Origin: Verrucomicrobiales bacterium
GTDB lineage: Bacteria; Verrucomicrobiota; Verrucomicrobiia; Verrucomicrobiales; V1-33
NCBI GenBank assembly: GCA_046155625.1
Contig: JBJXFS010000101.1
Location: 1 to 20,250 of the forward strand
Direction: 5' to 3'
Length of the DNA stretch: 20,250 nucleotides
This document shows, one piece after another, positions 5,181-7,481 of the stretch. Every line of letters begins with the position of its first letter. Position 1 is the first letter of the stretch. The position numbers and the translations under genes are program-made. The notes beneath the pieces were generated by a model that saw only the letters and a list, made by a program, of their open reading frames with translations, did not search any database and was not told the origin of the DNA.

Positions 5181-7481
5181 CTAGGGCAGGGGAAACCGGG
5201 TGTTGAAGTCGGCGACCCGACGACGGATGGCGTGGAGGGCGGCCGAGTCCTGGCGTTTTTCCAGCGCCTCGGCGATCCAGGCCGCGATGGCATCCATTTC
5301 GGGCTCTTTCATGCCGCGGGTCGTGACGGCGGGGGTGCCGATGCGGATGCCGCTCGGCTTCATTGGCGAGGCGGTGTCGAACGGTATGCTGTTCTTGTTC
5401 ACCGTGATGCCGGCTTCGTCGAGTGATTCCTGGGCGACCTTGCCATTGAGCCCCTGGGGCCGGAGGTCGACGAGCATGAGGTGGTTGTCGGTGCCGCCGG
5501 ACATGATGGTGAACCCGCGGGCGACGAGGGAGGCGGCGAGGGAGGCGGCATTCGCGACGACTTGGCGCTGGTACGTTTGGAATTCCGGTTGCAGGGCTTC
5601 ATGGAAGCAGACGGCTTTGGCGGCGATGACATGCATGAGGGGGCCGCCCTGGATGCCGGGAAAAACCTGGGCGTCGATTTTCTTCGCGAATTCCTCGCGA
5701 CAGAGGATGATGCCGCCGCGCGGGCCGCGCAGCGACTTGTGGGTCGTGCTGGTCACAAAGTCTGCATGCGGTATGGGCGATGGATGCACCCCGGCCGCGA
5801 CCAAGCCGGCGATGTGCGCCATGTCGACGAAGAGATACGCGCCCACGGAGCGGGCAATGGCCGCCATGCGTTCGAAGTCGATAAGACGCGGGTAAGCGCT
5901 CGCGCCGGCCGTGATCATTTTGGGTCGGCTTTCGGTGGCCAGCTTCTCCAGCTCGTCGTAATCGATCCGCCCGTCGGTCGCGCTCACGCCGTAGGGCACG
6001 ATGTCGTAGAACTTTCCGGAGAAATTGGCTGGATGCCCGTGGGTGAGGTGGCCGCCGTGGGCGAGGTTCATGCAGAGGAGGCGATCACCGGGTGCGAGGA
6101 CGGAGAAATAAACCGCGGCATTGGCTTGCGAACCGGAGTGGGGTTGCACGTTGGCGTGGTCGGCGCCGAAAAGCATTTTGACGCGGTCGATGGCCAGATG
6201 CTCCGCGACATCGACGTTTTCGCATCCGCCGTACCACCGGCGGCCGGGGTAGCCTTCGGCGTATTTGTTGGTCAAGCACGACCCCTGGGCTTCCATGACT
6301 GCCCGCGATGTGAAGTTTTCCGAGGCGATGAGTTCAAGGCTGTCGCGCTGGCGGAGTTTCTCGGCGCGGATGGTGTCGGCGATCGCCCGGTCGGCGAGAA
6401 CGAGCGGCGCTGGCCCGGCATTCATCTTGTCGACCCGGCGCGCATGGCGACCACCCCCGAAGTCGGTGGTGATGAACACATCAAGGATGGCGCGGGCGGT
6501 CTCGACTGGTGTGGTGGCGCCGGAGAGGCAAAGGATGTTGGCGTTGTTGTGTTCCCGGGTGATCTTGGCCGTGGAGATGTCGTGAACGAGCGCGGCTTGG
6601 ATGCCAGGCGTGCGATTGGCGGTGATGCTCATGCCGATGCCGGTGGTGCATATCAGCACGCCGACGTGGCTGGGATCGGACAGGACGCCGTCGATCACCG
6701 CCGGAACAAAGTCCGGATAATCCACGCTGTCCATGCCATGCGTGCCGGCATCATGCACTTTATGGCCGGCGCTCTGGCACGCCTCGACCAGCGCGTCCTT
6801 CAACGCCACCCCACCGTGATCGGCCCCGAAAAACAGCGTGCGCGTGGCGGGGTCCGGATTTGGCGCGGACGCCGGAGGGTTGGGCGTGTCGATGGTTGAG
6901 GCGGCTAACTGGTTCATGGGTGGAGAAATAGGCGATGGATTGGGTTTGGTCGGAGCTTTAGGCTCAGGCTCAGTCGTGGCGGCGAGCTTGGAACCGGAGG
7001 CGCCAGTGGGCGGAGAACGGAACGTCTGGTCGATGAAAGCCGCCAGACTGGGCAGCGCCTTTTTGAGCGCGCCGCGGGTCTCGAGGTACGCCTCGCGCCC
7101 CAGGCCGATGGGATCCGGAATGTCGCGTGCCATCAGGCGGGGGTCGGGGCAAAACTCGGTAACGAGATACGTTTTGTCGGCCGCTTCGGGAAAAGATGCC
7201 TCCACCATGGCGTGGTGGCCGCTGGTCATGACAAAAATGTGGGTCGCCTCCTCGGCGAGCCGGCGCGTGAGCGGTTGACTGCGAAAATACGAGAGATCGA
7301 TCTTTTCGTCGCGCAGCACGGAGAGCGTGTGGCCACTGGCTGGTTGTCCGGGCAGCGCGGCGACGCCCGCGGAGGCGACCTCGAAGTCGCCACGGTTTTG
7401 GACCATCCGTCGAAACAAGCCTTCAGCCATGGGGCTGCGGCAAACGTTCCCGGTGCAGACAAAGAGGACTTTCTTCTTCAA
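5181..7481 (-). CDS. glyA: Tri-domain fusion: LMW protein (Tyr/Arg) phosphatase + ribose-5-phosphate isomerase B (RpiB/LacAB) + serine hydroxymethyltransferase (GlyA)
   Basis: Single 766-codon ORF with no internal stop. Approximate domains by residue and minus-strand coordinate: (1) aa 1-153, ~7023..7481, CX5R P-loop [17 protein letters not shown] of LMW-PTP/arsenate-reductase-like phosphatases. (2) aa 154-213, ~6843..7022, Pro-rich linker. (3) aa 214-352, ~6426..6842, RpiB: FGADHGG...[16 protein letters not shown]...GGRHARRV. (4) aa 353-766, 5184..6425, SHMT: [38 protein letters not shown]...[13 protein letters not shown]. Confidence 0.85.

What the first reader, a model, noticed from the sequence alone, without database searches (positions are those of the whole stretch)
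5181..7481. Conserved operon ywlE-rpiB-glyA collapsed into one tri-domain polypeptide
One 2301-nt ORF with no internal stop encodes, in order, an LMW protein phosphatase (CTGNVCRS P-loop), RpiB, and full-length serine hydroxymethyltransferase. Bacillus and many Firmicutes keep these as adjacent separate genes in the same order (ywlE, ywlF/rpiB, then, after an intervening ywlG, glyA). A ~60-aa Pro-rich linker ([32 protein letters not shown]...) joins the phosphatase and RpiB. A short linker evolved between RpiB and SHMT (…[23 protein letters not shown]…). Both argue for a genuine fusion rather than a sequencing artefact. Physical coupling of a protein Arg/Tyr phosphatase to pentose-phosphate and one-carbon enzymes is unusual and may imply channeling or coordinated regulation. 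A linker Met at 6423-6425 (aa 353) could also give a stand-alone GlyA by internal initiation.
Basis: partly seen in the sequence, partly recalled or inferred. Interest (0 to 1): 0.7.

Follow-up and report, generated by a model that had tools for sequence, protein, structure and literature searches.

The report
Phosphatase–RpiB–SHMT three-enzyme fusion protein
One gene in this Verrucomicrobiales contig really does encode three normally separate housekeeping enzymes (a small phosphatase, ribose-5-phosphate isomerase B and serine hydroxymethyltransferase) as one protein; this is the usual arrangement in its bacterial lineage, not a one-off, and a conserved internal start codon hints that a shorter two-enzyme version is made as well.

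Summary
Window 5181-7481 (minus strand) is one 766-aa ORF with a TTG start. It holds three full-length domains with intact catalytic motifs: a YwlE-like LMW phosphatase (aa 1-152), RpiB (214-352) and SHMT (364-766).

The fusion is not an artefact. At least 120 other protein clusters (45-85% identity) have the same architecture, including Verrucomicrobium spinosum DSM 4136 (RefSeq WP_009959134.1, named only 'ribose 5-phosphate isomerase B') and Chthoniobacter. Linker 1 ranges from 19 to 70 aa and is predicted disordered, yet the frame is always kept.

Related lineages show the same gene cluster joined at other boundaries:
- RpiB-SHMT in Akkermansia, Kiritimatiellia and Victivallales.
- LMWPc-SHMT in Chthoniobacterales.
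- TsaC-LMWPc in Planctomycetes and Omnitrophota.
- Fully separate genes in Firmicutes and Acidobacteriota.

So 'operon collapse' is supported. 'Unusual' is overstated, and channeling has no support.

The proposed internal start at M353 is not supported. Unexpectedly, a different Met (M189, in linker 1) is present exactly once in 109 of 121 homologues. It is preceded by a local drop in third-position GC, and the 5' start is TTG or GTG in 8 of 12 loci. This suggests a second RpiB-SHMT product (61.6 kDa). That is untested.

Overall this is a catalogued but undescribed fusion family, of moderate interest.

The parts
5181..7481 (-). Whole ORF: 766 codons plus the stop codon at 5181-5183. Product is 81.9 kDa with the architecture LMWPc-RpiB-SHMT.
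   Evidence: identical to database protein P0001 (NCBI MAG Verrucomicrobiales, contig length 20250)
7479..7481 (-). TTG start codon, 8 codons before the catalytic Cys. It is the only ATG/GTG/TTG between the upstream in-frame TAG and the P-loop.
   Evidence: The same TTG-AAR-AAN context is found in L082-L086; L081 and L088 use GTG.
7026..7481 (-). LMW phosphatase domain (aa 1-152), YwlE-like.
   Evidence: Pfam LMWPc 94 bits. Best PDB relatives are YwlE arginine phosphatases, 4pic at 8.8e-25 and 4kk3 at 3.6e-22. AF2 pLDDT 92-97.
7434..7457 (-). P-loop C9-T-G-N-V13-C-R15-S16 (CX5R[S/T]). Position PX5 is Val.
   Evidence: C9 and R15 are invariant in the 30 homologues whose gene call includes them. 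PX5 is V17/I9/T4. The PX5 rule comes from PMC8001253.
7104..7115 (-). D123-P124-I-G, the general-acid Asp motif of the phosphatase.
   Evidence: D123, P124 and G126 are invariant in 61 homologues.
6843..7025 (-). Linker 1 (aa 153-213): disordered, 26% Pro, 66% P+A+S+T.
   Evidence: AF2 pLDDT <50 for 156-210. Length is 19-70 aa in 61 homologues, mean majority fraction 0.37. Composition.
6915..6917 (-). Met189 (ATG) inside linker 1. It is a candidate internal start for a 578-aa, 61.6-kDa RpiB-SHMT product.
   Evidence: Exactly one linker Met in 109 of 121 homologues, where random placement would give about 43. Predicted dG is 0.0 for the 60 nt around it, against a gene mean of -15.6.
6918..6947 (-). 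The ten codons upstream of Met189, with A/T-rich third positions (GC3 0.30 against 0.79 for the gene) and only 1 G in 30 nt. Possible internal translation-initiation region.
   Evidence: lowest 0.3% of positions in this gene; family mean dGC3 -0.23, reached by 0 of 50000 resamplings.
6426..6842 (-). RpiB domain (aa 214-352). Contains GADHGG (219-224), C278 in CTTGIG (6648-6650), H311/N312 and R345/H346/R349.
   Evidence: all of these residues are invariant in 61 homologues.
6393..6425 (-). Junction 2 (aa 353-363, [11 protein letters not shown]), a short connector. Met353 is at 6423-6425.
   Evidence: Connector length is 7-17 aa in homologues. Residue 353 is M37/I12/L11/T1. AF2 places helix 345-353 here, with pLDDT about 68 across the junction. 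No GC3 signal.
5184..6392 (-). SHMT domain (aa 364-766). The PLP lysine K582 in [12 protein letters not shown] lies at 5736-5738.
   Evidence: PDB hits to bacterial SHMTs are around 1e-166 over residues 367-758. K582 is invariant.

Best explanation
This is a genuine trifunctional protein made by fusing neighbouring genes of the widely conserved housekeeping cluster (tsaC)-ywlE-rpiB-glyA.

Shown here: one uninterrupted ORF encodes three complete, separately folding catalytic modules.
- A YwlE-like Cys-dependent LMW phosphatase (Cys9, Arg15, Asp123).
- A disordered P/A/S/T linker of about 60 aa.
- RpiB (Asp221/His222, Cys278, His311, Arg345/349).
- An 11-aa connector.
- PLP-dependent SHMT (Lys582).

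Inferred: each module performs its normal reaction independently.
- RpiB interconverts ribose-5-P and ribulose-5-P.
- SHMT converts serine plus THF into glycine plus 5,10-CH2-THF.
- The phosphatase removes phosphate from protein Arg or Tyr.

Inferred benefit: obligatory co-expression of the suppliers of ribose-5-P, glycine and one-carbon units for nucleotide synthesis, rather than substrate channeling, because no intermediate is shared.

Inferred history, from the distribution of architectures: rpiB-glyA fused first, since RpiB-SHMT proteins occur across Verrucomicrobiota, Kiritimatiellia and Victivallales. The upstream phosphatase gene joined later by a frame-restoring change at an overlapping stop/start.

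Secondary inference (about 40%): the gene also yields a shorter RpiB-SHMT protein from the conserved internal ATG at Met189. The weak TTG start would keep the phosphatase-bearing full-length form scarce.
For: Architecture and intact motifs.

Recurrence: 119 further 90%-identity clusters carry all three Pfam domains at 58-82% identity, some on contigs of 8.22, 6.45, 6.41 and 1.05 Mb. A 45%-identity representative (P0124) is also tri-domain. Named members are V. spinosum WP_009959134.1, Verrucomicrobium spp. and Chthoniobacter.

Catalytic residues of all three domains are invariant in 61 homologues.

Linkers are hypervariable in length and sequence but always in frame. AF2 gives three confident domains plus a disordered linker.

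Other states of the same cluster:
- Separate genes in Firmicutes, Acidobacteriota, Planctomycetes and others.
- RpiB-SHMT fusions (L002-4, L012, L019, L024, P0122, P0123).
- LMWPc-SHMT fusions (L013, L018).
- TsaC-LMWPc fusions (L014, L079).

Intermediates between split and fused states:
- In L005 the phosphatase gene's TGA overlaps the ATG of an RpiB-SHMT gene.
- V. spinosum exists in databases both as a 748-aa fusion and as 187 + 561 aa. In the split form the 561-aa protein starts at the Val (presumably GTG) codon next to the phosphatase stop.

Against: - No experimental evidence exists for the protein, its size or any of its three activities.
- No paper on the fusion was found in the searched library.
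- The selective advantage (co-expression) is inferred only. Relatives drop either the phosphatase or RpiB, so the tri-domain state is not obligatory.
- The substrate of the phosphatase is unknown. Val at PX5 fits neither the Thr (pArg) nor the Ile (pTyr) paradigm exactly.
- The order of fusion events rests on a capped, non-exhaustive scan, not on a phylogeny.
- Oligomeric compatibility of dimeric RpiB and dimeric SHMT across an 11-aa connector was not modelled.
Confidence: 0.85

Rival explanations
1. Assembly or sequencing artefact. Three separate adjacent genes were merged into one ORF by indel errors in the GC-rich junctions.
For: - Single-base changes can toggle the state. V. spinosum appears both fused (748 aa) and split (187+561 aa) in different assemblies.
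- L005 is split with an ATGA overlap.
Against: - At least 120 independent clusters from different projects and assemblers, including finished genomes, keep one frame through linkers of 19-70 aa.
- No glyA-type start or spacer exists at junction 2, where the RpiB C-terminal motif runs into the SHMT N-terminus after 7-17 aa.
- Codon-position GC is coding-like throughout the ORF.
Confidence: 0.02
2. Functional coupling beyond co-expression. Either the phosphatase domain regulates the attached RpiB or SHMT (or their partners) by dephosphorylation in cis, or the fusion builds a metabolon that channels metabolites.
For: - The phosphatase stays tethered to SHMT even where RpiB has been lost (L013, L018).
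- The phosphatase's catalytic residues are conserved within the fusion.
Against: - RpiB and SHMT share no substrate or product (established biochemistry).
- The linker is long, disordered and of very variable length, which argues against a fixed geometry.
- Many relatives have RpiB-SHMT with no phosphatase nearby (L002-L004, L012, L024).
Confidence: 0.1
3. The N-terminal domain acts on a small phospho-metabolite, for example pyridoxal 5'-phosphate (the SHMT cofactor), rather than on proteins. It would serve cofactor handling for SHMT.
For: - PLP is a known tight ligand of LMW-PTPs. This is from my own knowledge; a study of PLP analogues against LMW-PTP isoforms is listed in the references of PMC11669113.
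- LMWPc-SHMT fusions without RpiB exist.
Against: - The closest solved relatives are protein arginine phosphatases.
- The same phosphatase is fused to TsaC in other phyla and is absent from many RpiB-SHMT proteins. Its fusion partner therefore follows gene order, not cofactor chemistry.
- There is no direct test.
Confidence: 0.07
4. One reading: Met353 at the RpiB-SHMT junction starts a stand-alone 44.6-kDa GlyA.
For: - An ATG is present at 6423-6425.
- Met is the majority residue at this position, in 37 of 61 homologues.
Against: - The residue is I, L or T in 24 of 61 homologues.
- It lies in the predicted RpiB C-terminal helix, 345-353.
- There is no GC3 dip upstream: mean -0.02, against -0.23 at Met189.
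- The upstream sequence GGGTCGACAAG has no ribosome-binding resemblance.
Confidence: 0.05
5. The conserved linker Met and the A/T-rich codons before it are not a start site. They would instead be a translational pause (a rare-codon cluster) that helps the phosphatase domain fold, plus a Met kept for some structural or motif reason or as a relic of the old rpiB start.
For: - Rare-codon clusters after domain boundaries are a known idea (own knowledge).
- A relic Met is visible in a probably recent fusion, L017 ('MARS-LAEVD').
- No Shine-Dalgarno-like sequence precedes Met189.
Against: - A neutral relic should not survive in 114 of 121 sequences when the mean majority fraction of the surrounding linker is only 0.37.
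- The GC3 dip is centred on the 10 codons before the Met, not at a fixed distance from the phosphatase domain, which varies from 1 to 45 aa.
- The family's 5' starts also lack Shine-Dalgarno motifs.
Confidence: 0.3

Closest known systems
Bacillus subtilis ywlE - ywlF(rpiB) - ywlG - glyA gene cluster (separate proteins: YwlE arginine phosphatase, RpiB, GlyA)
   Same: - Same three enzyme families in the same order.
- The phosphatase domain's best solved relatives are YwlE proteins (4pic, 4kk3, 1zgg).
- The Firmicute loci retrieved here show the cluster as separate genes (L034, L046, L057, L068, L080).
   Different: - Here the three are one polypeptide, with no ywlG-like gene in between.
- The P-loop PX5 residue is Val, not the Thr that confers pArg specificity.
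- The start codon is TTG.
Two-domain RpiB-SHMT fusion proteins of Akkermansia, Kiritimatiellia, Victivallales and some Verrucomicrobiales (e.g. MBR6076496.1, MBQ6924650.1)
   Same: - Same RpiB-short connector-SHMT core, with the RpiB C-terminal GGRHxRR motif running into the SHMT N-terminus.
- 54-65% identity over residues ~216-766.
   Different: - They lack the phosphatase and linker 1.
- They start 2-8 residues before the first RpiB strand.
Other fusions built on the same cluster or on SHMT: TsaC(Sua5)-LMWPc (Planctomycetes, Omnitrophota), LMWPc-SHMT (Chthoniobacterales), DHFR-SHMT, DHFR-Tmk-SHMT, FolB-SHMT
   Same: - Neighbouring or pathway-related housekeeping genes joined into one ORF.
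- SHMT is always the C-terminal module.
   Different: - Different partners.
- The folate-pathway fusions join enzymes that share metabolites, which the present fusion does not.
Bacterial genes that give two in-frame products from a full-length start and an internal start (ClpB 93/79 kDa, IF2 forms, CheA long/short); recalled from knowledge, not tested here
   Same: If Met189 is used, one ORF would give a full-length product and an N-terminally shortened product lacking one domain.
   Different: No protein-level evidence here. The signal is comparative only: a conserved single Met, a GC3 dip, low predicted structure and a weak 5' start.

Membership tests
Low-molecular-weight phosphatase (LMWPc, PF01451) | Profile match above the curated cutoff over the whole domain | tested here: met
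   94 bits against a cutoff of 23.2, profile positions 1-143 of 144.
Low-molecular-weight phosphatase (LMWPc, PF01451) | N-terminal CX5R(S/T) P-loop and a general-acid Asp in a DP motif | tested here: met
   C9-TGNVC-R15-S16 and D123-P124. These are conserved in homologues.
YwlE/PtpB-type protein arginine phosphatase | Closest sequence relatives are characterised arginine phosphatases | tested here: met
   The top PDB hits are YwlE of Geobacillus and B. subtilis, at 8.8e-25 and 3.6e-22.
YwlE/PtpB-type protein arginine phosphatase | Thr at P-loop position PX5 (Thr gives pArg specificity, Ile gives pTyr; PMC8001253) | tested here: not met
   The window has Val13. Across the family the residue is V17/I9/T4. 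The rule was read.
YwlE/PtpB-type protein arginine phosphatase | A partner protein arginine kinase (McsB) in the same genome | not testable with these tools
   Only a 20-kb contig is available, and no McsB-like gene lies in the window (Pfam survey).
Ribose-5-phosphate isomerase B (TIGR01120 equivalog) | Equivalog model score above the curated cutoff | tested here: met
   144.3 bits against a cutoff of 138.65, model positions 2-140 of 143.
Ribose-5-phosphate isomerase B (TIGR01120 equivalog) | Catalytic and phosphate-binding residues (E. coli Asp9/His10, Cys66, His99/Asn100, Arg133/His134/Arg137; numbering recalled from knowledge) | tested here: met
   D221/H222, C278, H311/N312 and R345/H346/R349 sit at a constant offset of 212. 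All are invariant in 61 homologues.
Serine hydroxymethyltransferase (PF00464 / NF000586) | Full-length profile match above cutoff, with the PLP-binding Lys in the T-T-H-K motif | tested here: met
   637 bits against a cutoff of 335, positions 2-403 of 404. K582 in [12 protein letters not shown] is invariant. PDB SHMT hits are around 1e-166.
Genuine multi-enzyme gene fusion derived from a conserved gene cluster | Single ORF, the same architecture in independent genomes, and component genes adjacent but separate elsewhere | tested here: met
Genuine multi-enzyme gene fusion derived from a conserved gene cluster | A protein product of the fused size, carrying all activities | not testable with these tools
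   Needs proteomics and enzymology. No publication was found.
Two-isoform gene with an in-frame internal start | Internal start codon conserved beyond its surroundings | tested here: met
   Exactly one Met in linker 1 in 109 of 121 homologues, against about 43 expected. V. spinosum, which lacks the Met, has a Val (presumably GTG) codon there that RefSeq uses as the start in a split assembly.
Two-isoform gene with an in-frame internal start | Features of a translation-initiation region upstream of the internal start | tested here: inconclusive
   The local GC3 dip averages -0.23 over 11 loci and was reached by 0 of 50000 resamplings. Predicted structure is low, z = +2.4. However, there is no Shine-Dalgarno motif, the low structure is confounded by linker composition, and only 11-12 related loci were available.
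Two-isoform gene with an in-frame internal start | Two protein products observed | not testable with these tools
   Requires a Western blot, N-terminomics or initiation-site ribosome profiling.

The most novel reading that the evidence does not exclude
The ORF is a programmed two-product gene. A weak TTG (or GTG) start makes a small amount of the full phosphatase-RpiB-SHMT protein. A conserved internal ATG in the disordered linker (Met189, 6915-6917) sits in an unstructured stretch with A/T-rich third positions, and it makes the bulk RpiB-SHMT enzyme without the phosphatase. On this reading the family has kept, inside a fused ORF, the start site of the gene it absorbed, and uses it to set the ratio of a regulatory enzyme to two housekeeping enzymes.
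Probability: 0.4. Interest if true: 0.55.

Novelty: new member of a known kind. Interest (0 to 1): 0.4.

Why it matters
The fusion is a clean natural example of one conserved housekeeping gene cluster (tsaC-ywlE-rpiB-glyA) being joined at different boundaries in different phyla. That makes it useful for studying how operons turn into multi-enzyme proteins.

It has practical consequences for annotation:
- The family is named only 'ribose 5-phosphate isomerase B' or 'glycine hydroxymethyltransferase', so two of its three activities are invisible to metabolic reconstructions of Verrucomicrobiota.
- Roughly two thirds of database gene calls start after the catalytic cysteine of the phosphatase, because the true start is TTG or GTG.

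The persistent linkage of a YwlE-like phosphatase to RpiB and SHMT, in organisms not known to have the McsB arginine kinase, raises the question of what this phosphatase really acts on.

If the internal start is real, the gene would be a compact case of isoform-ratio control in bacteria.

Tried and rejected
1. Literature. Five full-text searches found no paper describing an LMWPc-RpiB-SHMT or RpiB-SHMT fusion. This covers only the open-access library.

2. Regulatory RNA. Rfam found nothing at gathering thresholds over the whole window, and nothing at E<=1 over 6700-7800. There is therefore no ZTP, THF or glycine riboswitch ahead of the gene. The sigma-70-like promoter scan was empty, and the terminator-like hits were not above the shuffled expectation in any useful way.

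3. Solved structures. No PDB chain contains the fusion.

4. Met353 as an internal start. Rejected.

5. Same-frame rpiB and glyA genes. In separate-gene loci, 18 of 28 pairs are in the same frame (nominal binomial p = 8e-4). I do not read this as biology. The 80 loci are the top tblastn scorers out of a capped scan, and same-frame pairs score higher.

6. Low RNA structure around Met189 as independent evidence. Downgraded, because the P/T/S-rich linker is G-poor by composition. I rely instead on third-position GC, which is independent of amino-acid content.

7. Neighbouring genes. Those in the window give no functional context: no Pfam hits for 4321-5160, 7581-8270 or 8343-9494.

8. Census. The genome scan was capped at 600 stretches, so it cannot serve as a taxonomic census.
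Full report
**Observation**

The window (20,250 bases, the whole of one NCBI contig from a Verrucomicrobiales MAG) carries a single ORF at 5181..7481 on the minus strand. It is 766 codons long with a TTG start. The nearest in-frame upstream stop lies 102 nt above the TTG, with no other ATG/GTG/TTG in between.

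Pfam finds three full-length domains:
- LMWPc at 5-146.
- LacAB_rpiB at 218-353.
- SHMT at 363-736.

NCBIfam places the middle domain above the rpiB equivalog cutoff (144.3 against 138.65 bits) and the C-terminal domain in the SHMT family (637 bits). The calculated mass is 81.9 kDa.

**Is the fusion real?**

Yes. A search of 5.8 billion proteins returned the window's own protein (annotated 'ribose 5-phosphate isomerase B') and 119 further 90%-identity clusters.
- All carry the three Pfam domains.
- Identity is 58-82% and length 704-781 aa.
- They come from NCBI, ENA, JGI and Logan assemblies.
- They include contigs of 8.22, 6.45, 6.41 and 1.05 Mb.

An exhaustive HMMER scan of 50%-identity representatives adds a 45%-identity tri-domain representative. 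Cluster look-up identifies cultured carriers: Verrucomicrobium spinosum DSM 4136 (WP_009959134.1, 748 aa) and Verrucomicrobium spp. BvORR034 and BvORR106. Source names also include Chthoniobacter and Chthoniobacteraceae.

In a 61-sequence alignment the catalytic residues of all three modules are invariant. These are:
- P-loop Cys and Arg, and the DP Asp, in the phosphatase.
- Asp221/His222, Cys278, His311/Asn312 and Arg345/His346/Arg349 in RpiB.
- Lys582 in SHMT.

By contrast, linker 1 varies from 19 to 70 aa (the window, at 66, is near the maximum) with 65% A/T/P/S. Junction 2 varies from 7 to 17 aa. Frame conservation across so many different linker lengths excludes an assembly artefact.

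AlphaFold2 with this alignment gives three confident domains (pLDDT mostly above 90). Residues 156-210 are disordered (pLDDT ~33), and the second junction is short and of moderate confidence. No solved structure contains the fusion.

**Where it comes from**

A capped scan of GTDB species genomes gave 80 loci. I re-analysed them with domain HMMs on stop-to-stop ORFs and checked selected ones with Pfam. The same gene cluster appears in many states:
- Tri-domain ORFs: L001, and L006 (labelled an Akkermansia muciniphila MAG).
- RpiB-SHMT ORFs: L002-L004 (Verrucomicrobiales/ota), L012 and L019 (Akkermansia/Akkermansiaceae) and L024 (Victivallales).
- LMWPc-SHMT ORFs with no RpiB: L013, and L018 (Chthoniobacterales).
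- TsaC(Sua5)-LMWPc ORFs followed by separate rpiB and glyA: L014, L079 and relatives (Planctomycetes, Omnitrophota).
- Fully separate genes: Firmicutes (ywlE, rpiB, a gap gene, glyA), and rpiB next to glyA in Acidobacteriota, Marinimicrobia, Ignavibacteria, Alphaproteobacteria and Actinobacteria.

Intermediates are visible:
- In L005 the phosphatase gene's TGA overlaps the ATG of an RpiB-SHMT gene (CAATGAAGATG).
- V. spinosum occurs both as a 748-aa fusion and, in another assembly, as 187 + 561 aa. In the split form the second protein starts at the Val codon next to the new stop.
- An acidobacterial RpiB-SHMT fusion (L017) still carries the old glyA start 'MARS-LAEVD' in its linker.

The collapse has happened at different boundaries in different lineages.

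**What the modules are**

The phosphatase domain is most similar to the YwlE arginine phosphatases (4pic 8.8e-25; B. subtilis YwlE 3.6e-22). The residue that sets specificity is Thr in YwlE and PtpB (favouring pArg) and Ile in pTyr enzymes (PMC8001253). Here it is Val, and across the family it is V17/I9/T4. I therefore file the domain as an LMW phosphatase of the YwlE branch with undetermined substrate, not as an arginine phosphatase.

RpiB and SHMT meet all sequence criteria tested. RpiB supplies ribose-5-P, the precursor of PRPP. SHMT supplies glycine and one-carbon units. All three feed purine synthesis, and glyA is in the purine regulon of E. coli (PMC12651746). Co-expression is thus a sensible benefit, but it is an inference.

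Channeling has no support:
- The enzymes share no intermediate.
- Linker 1 is long, disordered and of variable length.
- Relatives drop either the phosphatase or RpiB.

**Internal initiation**

That residue lies in the predicted C-terminal helix of RpiB. It is I, L or T in 24 of 61 homologues. It has no synonymous-site signal upstream (mean GC3 deviation -0.02). I reject it.

A different Met stands out. In linker 1, otherwise the least conserved part of the protein (mean majority fraction 0.37), the 121 tri-domain proteins break down as follows:

| Met count in linker 1 | Observed | Expected from random placement |
|---|---|---|
| 0 | 7 | 47 |
| exactly 1 | 109 | 43 |
| 2 | 5 | 31 (two or more) |

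Further properties of this Met:
- It is anchored to RpiB, at a median of 19 aa before the domain (IQR 16-21).
- Its distance from the phosphatase domain ranges from 1 to 45 aa.
- It is followed mostly by S, T, P, H or N.

In the window it is Met189 (6915-6917).

At the nucleotide level I examined 12 tri-domain loci (the window, L001, L006, L081-L089):
- The 60 nt around this ATG are among the least structured of each gene (z = +2.4). The G-poor linker composition confounds this result.
- Third-position GC does not depend on amino-acid content. It drops to 0.51 in the 10 codons before the Met, against 0.74 gene-wide (n = 11, Wilcoxon p = 0.005).
- The drop is local. Deviations are -0.04 at codons -20 to -11, -0.20 at -10 to -6 and -0.27 at -5 to -1, returning to near normal beyond +10.
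- None of 50,000 resamplings of one random position per gene reached the observed mean of -0.23.
- In the window the value is 0.30 against 0.79, in the lowest 0.3% of positions.

The 5' start is also weak. It is TTG in 6 and GTG in 2 of the 12 loci.

Together these signals suggest that the ORF also produces a 578-aa (61.6-kDa) RpiB-SHMT protein from Met189, with the full-length form kept scarce. I put this at about 40%. The caveats are:
- There is no Shine-Dalgarno motif, although the 5' starts lack one too.
- The sample of nucleotide sequences is small and phylogenetically related.
- A folding-pause or relic explanation is not excluded.

**Annotation problems found on the way**

About two thirds of the database gene calls for this family begin at Met18 ('MAEGLF...'), downstream of the catalytic P-loop. 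In all three such cases examined, the in-frame upstream sequence encodes an intact [13 protein letters not shown] preceded by TTG or GTG. These calls are therefore truncated.

The family is named after only one of its three activities. Separately, PDB entry 4egs, titled 'Ribose 5-phosphate isomerase RpiB', matches the phosphatase domain and not RpiB.

**Novelty and verdict**

It is, however, the normal form of these genes in a whole branch of Verrucomicrobiota and is already present, unremarked, in RefSeq. I found no paper on it in the searchable library.

It is a new member of a catalogued but uncharacterised fusion family built from three well-known enzymes. Interest is moderate at 0.4. The conserved internal start and the unresolved role of the phosphatase raise it somewhat. 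The lineage-wide occurrence and the lack of any evidence for new chemistry lower it.

Noticed in passing
Family-wide; window 7431-7481; L081-L083 around position 2950-3000: About two thirds of database gene calls for this fusion family start at Met18 ('MAEGLF'), which cuts off the catalytic P-loop. In 3 of 3 cases checked, the upstream in-frame sequence encodes an intact P-loop after a TTG or GTG start. Across 12 loci the start is TTG x6, GTG x2 and ATG x4.
   Followed up: yes
L014:3371-4453, L079:2719-3798 (also L009, L047): In Planctomycetes and Omnitrophota loci the LMW phosphatase is fused to an N-terminal Sua5/YrdC (TsaC) domain instead, and rpiB and glyA follow as separate genes. The same conserved cluster has been joined at a different boundary.
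   Followed up: partly
L013:2813-4615, L018:3995-5800: Verrucomicrobia and Chthoniobacterales genomes have an LMWPc-SHMT fusion with no RpiB domain, joined by a linker of about 44 aa that also contains Met. Whether RpiA replaces RpiB in these genomes is unknown.
   Followed up: partly
L007, L008, L010, L015, L020, L021, L023, L027, L028, L030, L071, L078 and others: Where rpiB and glyA are separate adjacent genes, they are in the same reading frame in 18 of 28 loci, often with a single stop codon between them (nominal p = 8e-4). This may only reflect the tblastn ranking that selected the loci. If it is real, it would make stop-loss fusion easy.
   Followed up: partly
P0137, P0142, P0145: Other N-terminal fusions to SHMT exist in the protein universe: DHFR-SHMT (608 aa), DHFR-thymidylate kinase-SHMT (811 aa) and dihydroneopterin aldolase (FolB)-SHMT (562 aa).
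   Followed up: no
PDB 4egs chain A: A 180-aa solved structure deposited as 'Ribose 5-phosphate isomerase RpiB' aligns to the phosphatase domain (query residues 4-141), not to RpiB. The name looks like one carried over from an adjacent or fused gene.
   Followed up: no
P0305, P0302, P0306 (V. spinosum): The same V. spinosum sequence is recorded as one 748-aa protein in the finished genome and as 187 aa plus 561 aa in another assembly. The split version ends '...APPPR*' where the fused version reads '...APPPAVKLPAV', and its second protein begins at that Val codon. The difference fits a small indel at the proline run (nucleotide sequence not examined), which could be a sequencing error or a real polymorphism.
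   Followed up: partly
window 7581-8270 (-) and 4321-5160 (-); L082:2163-2852 and 5265-6074; L084:195-869; L085:186-860: A hypothetical gene of about 224-229 aa (hydrophobic N-terminus, no Pfam hit) lies directly upstream of the fusion gene in the window and in its closer relatives. In the window and L082, a gene of about 270-279 aa with no Pfam hit follows downstream. This is conserved synteny of unknown meaning.
   Followed up: no
window 17076-20214 (-), GC dip at 17501-18500: A 765-aa ORF with an RHS repeat (17917-20214) is followed on the same strand by two small ORFs with no family match (17570-17941, 17076-17570). GC falls from about 0.62 to 0.49-0.53 in this region. The layout resembles an Rhs toxin tip with immunity genes.
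   Followed up: no
window 57-476 (+), 1166-1819 (-), 1966-4209 (+), 13725-16493 (+): Other recognisable genes in the contig are a PIN-domain protein, a sigma-70 region 2 protein, a 747-aa SPFH/Band 7 protein and a 922-aa DUF7133 protein. The window has no tRNA gene and no Rfam match.
   Followed up: no
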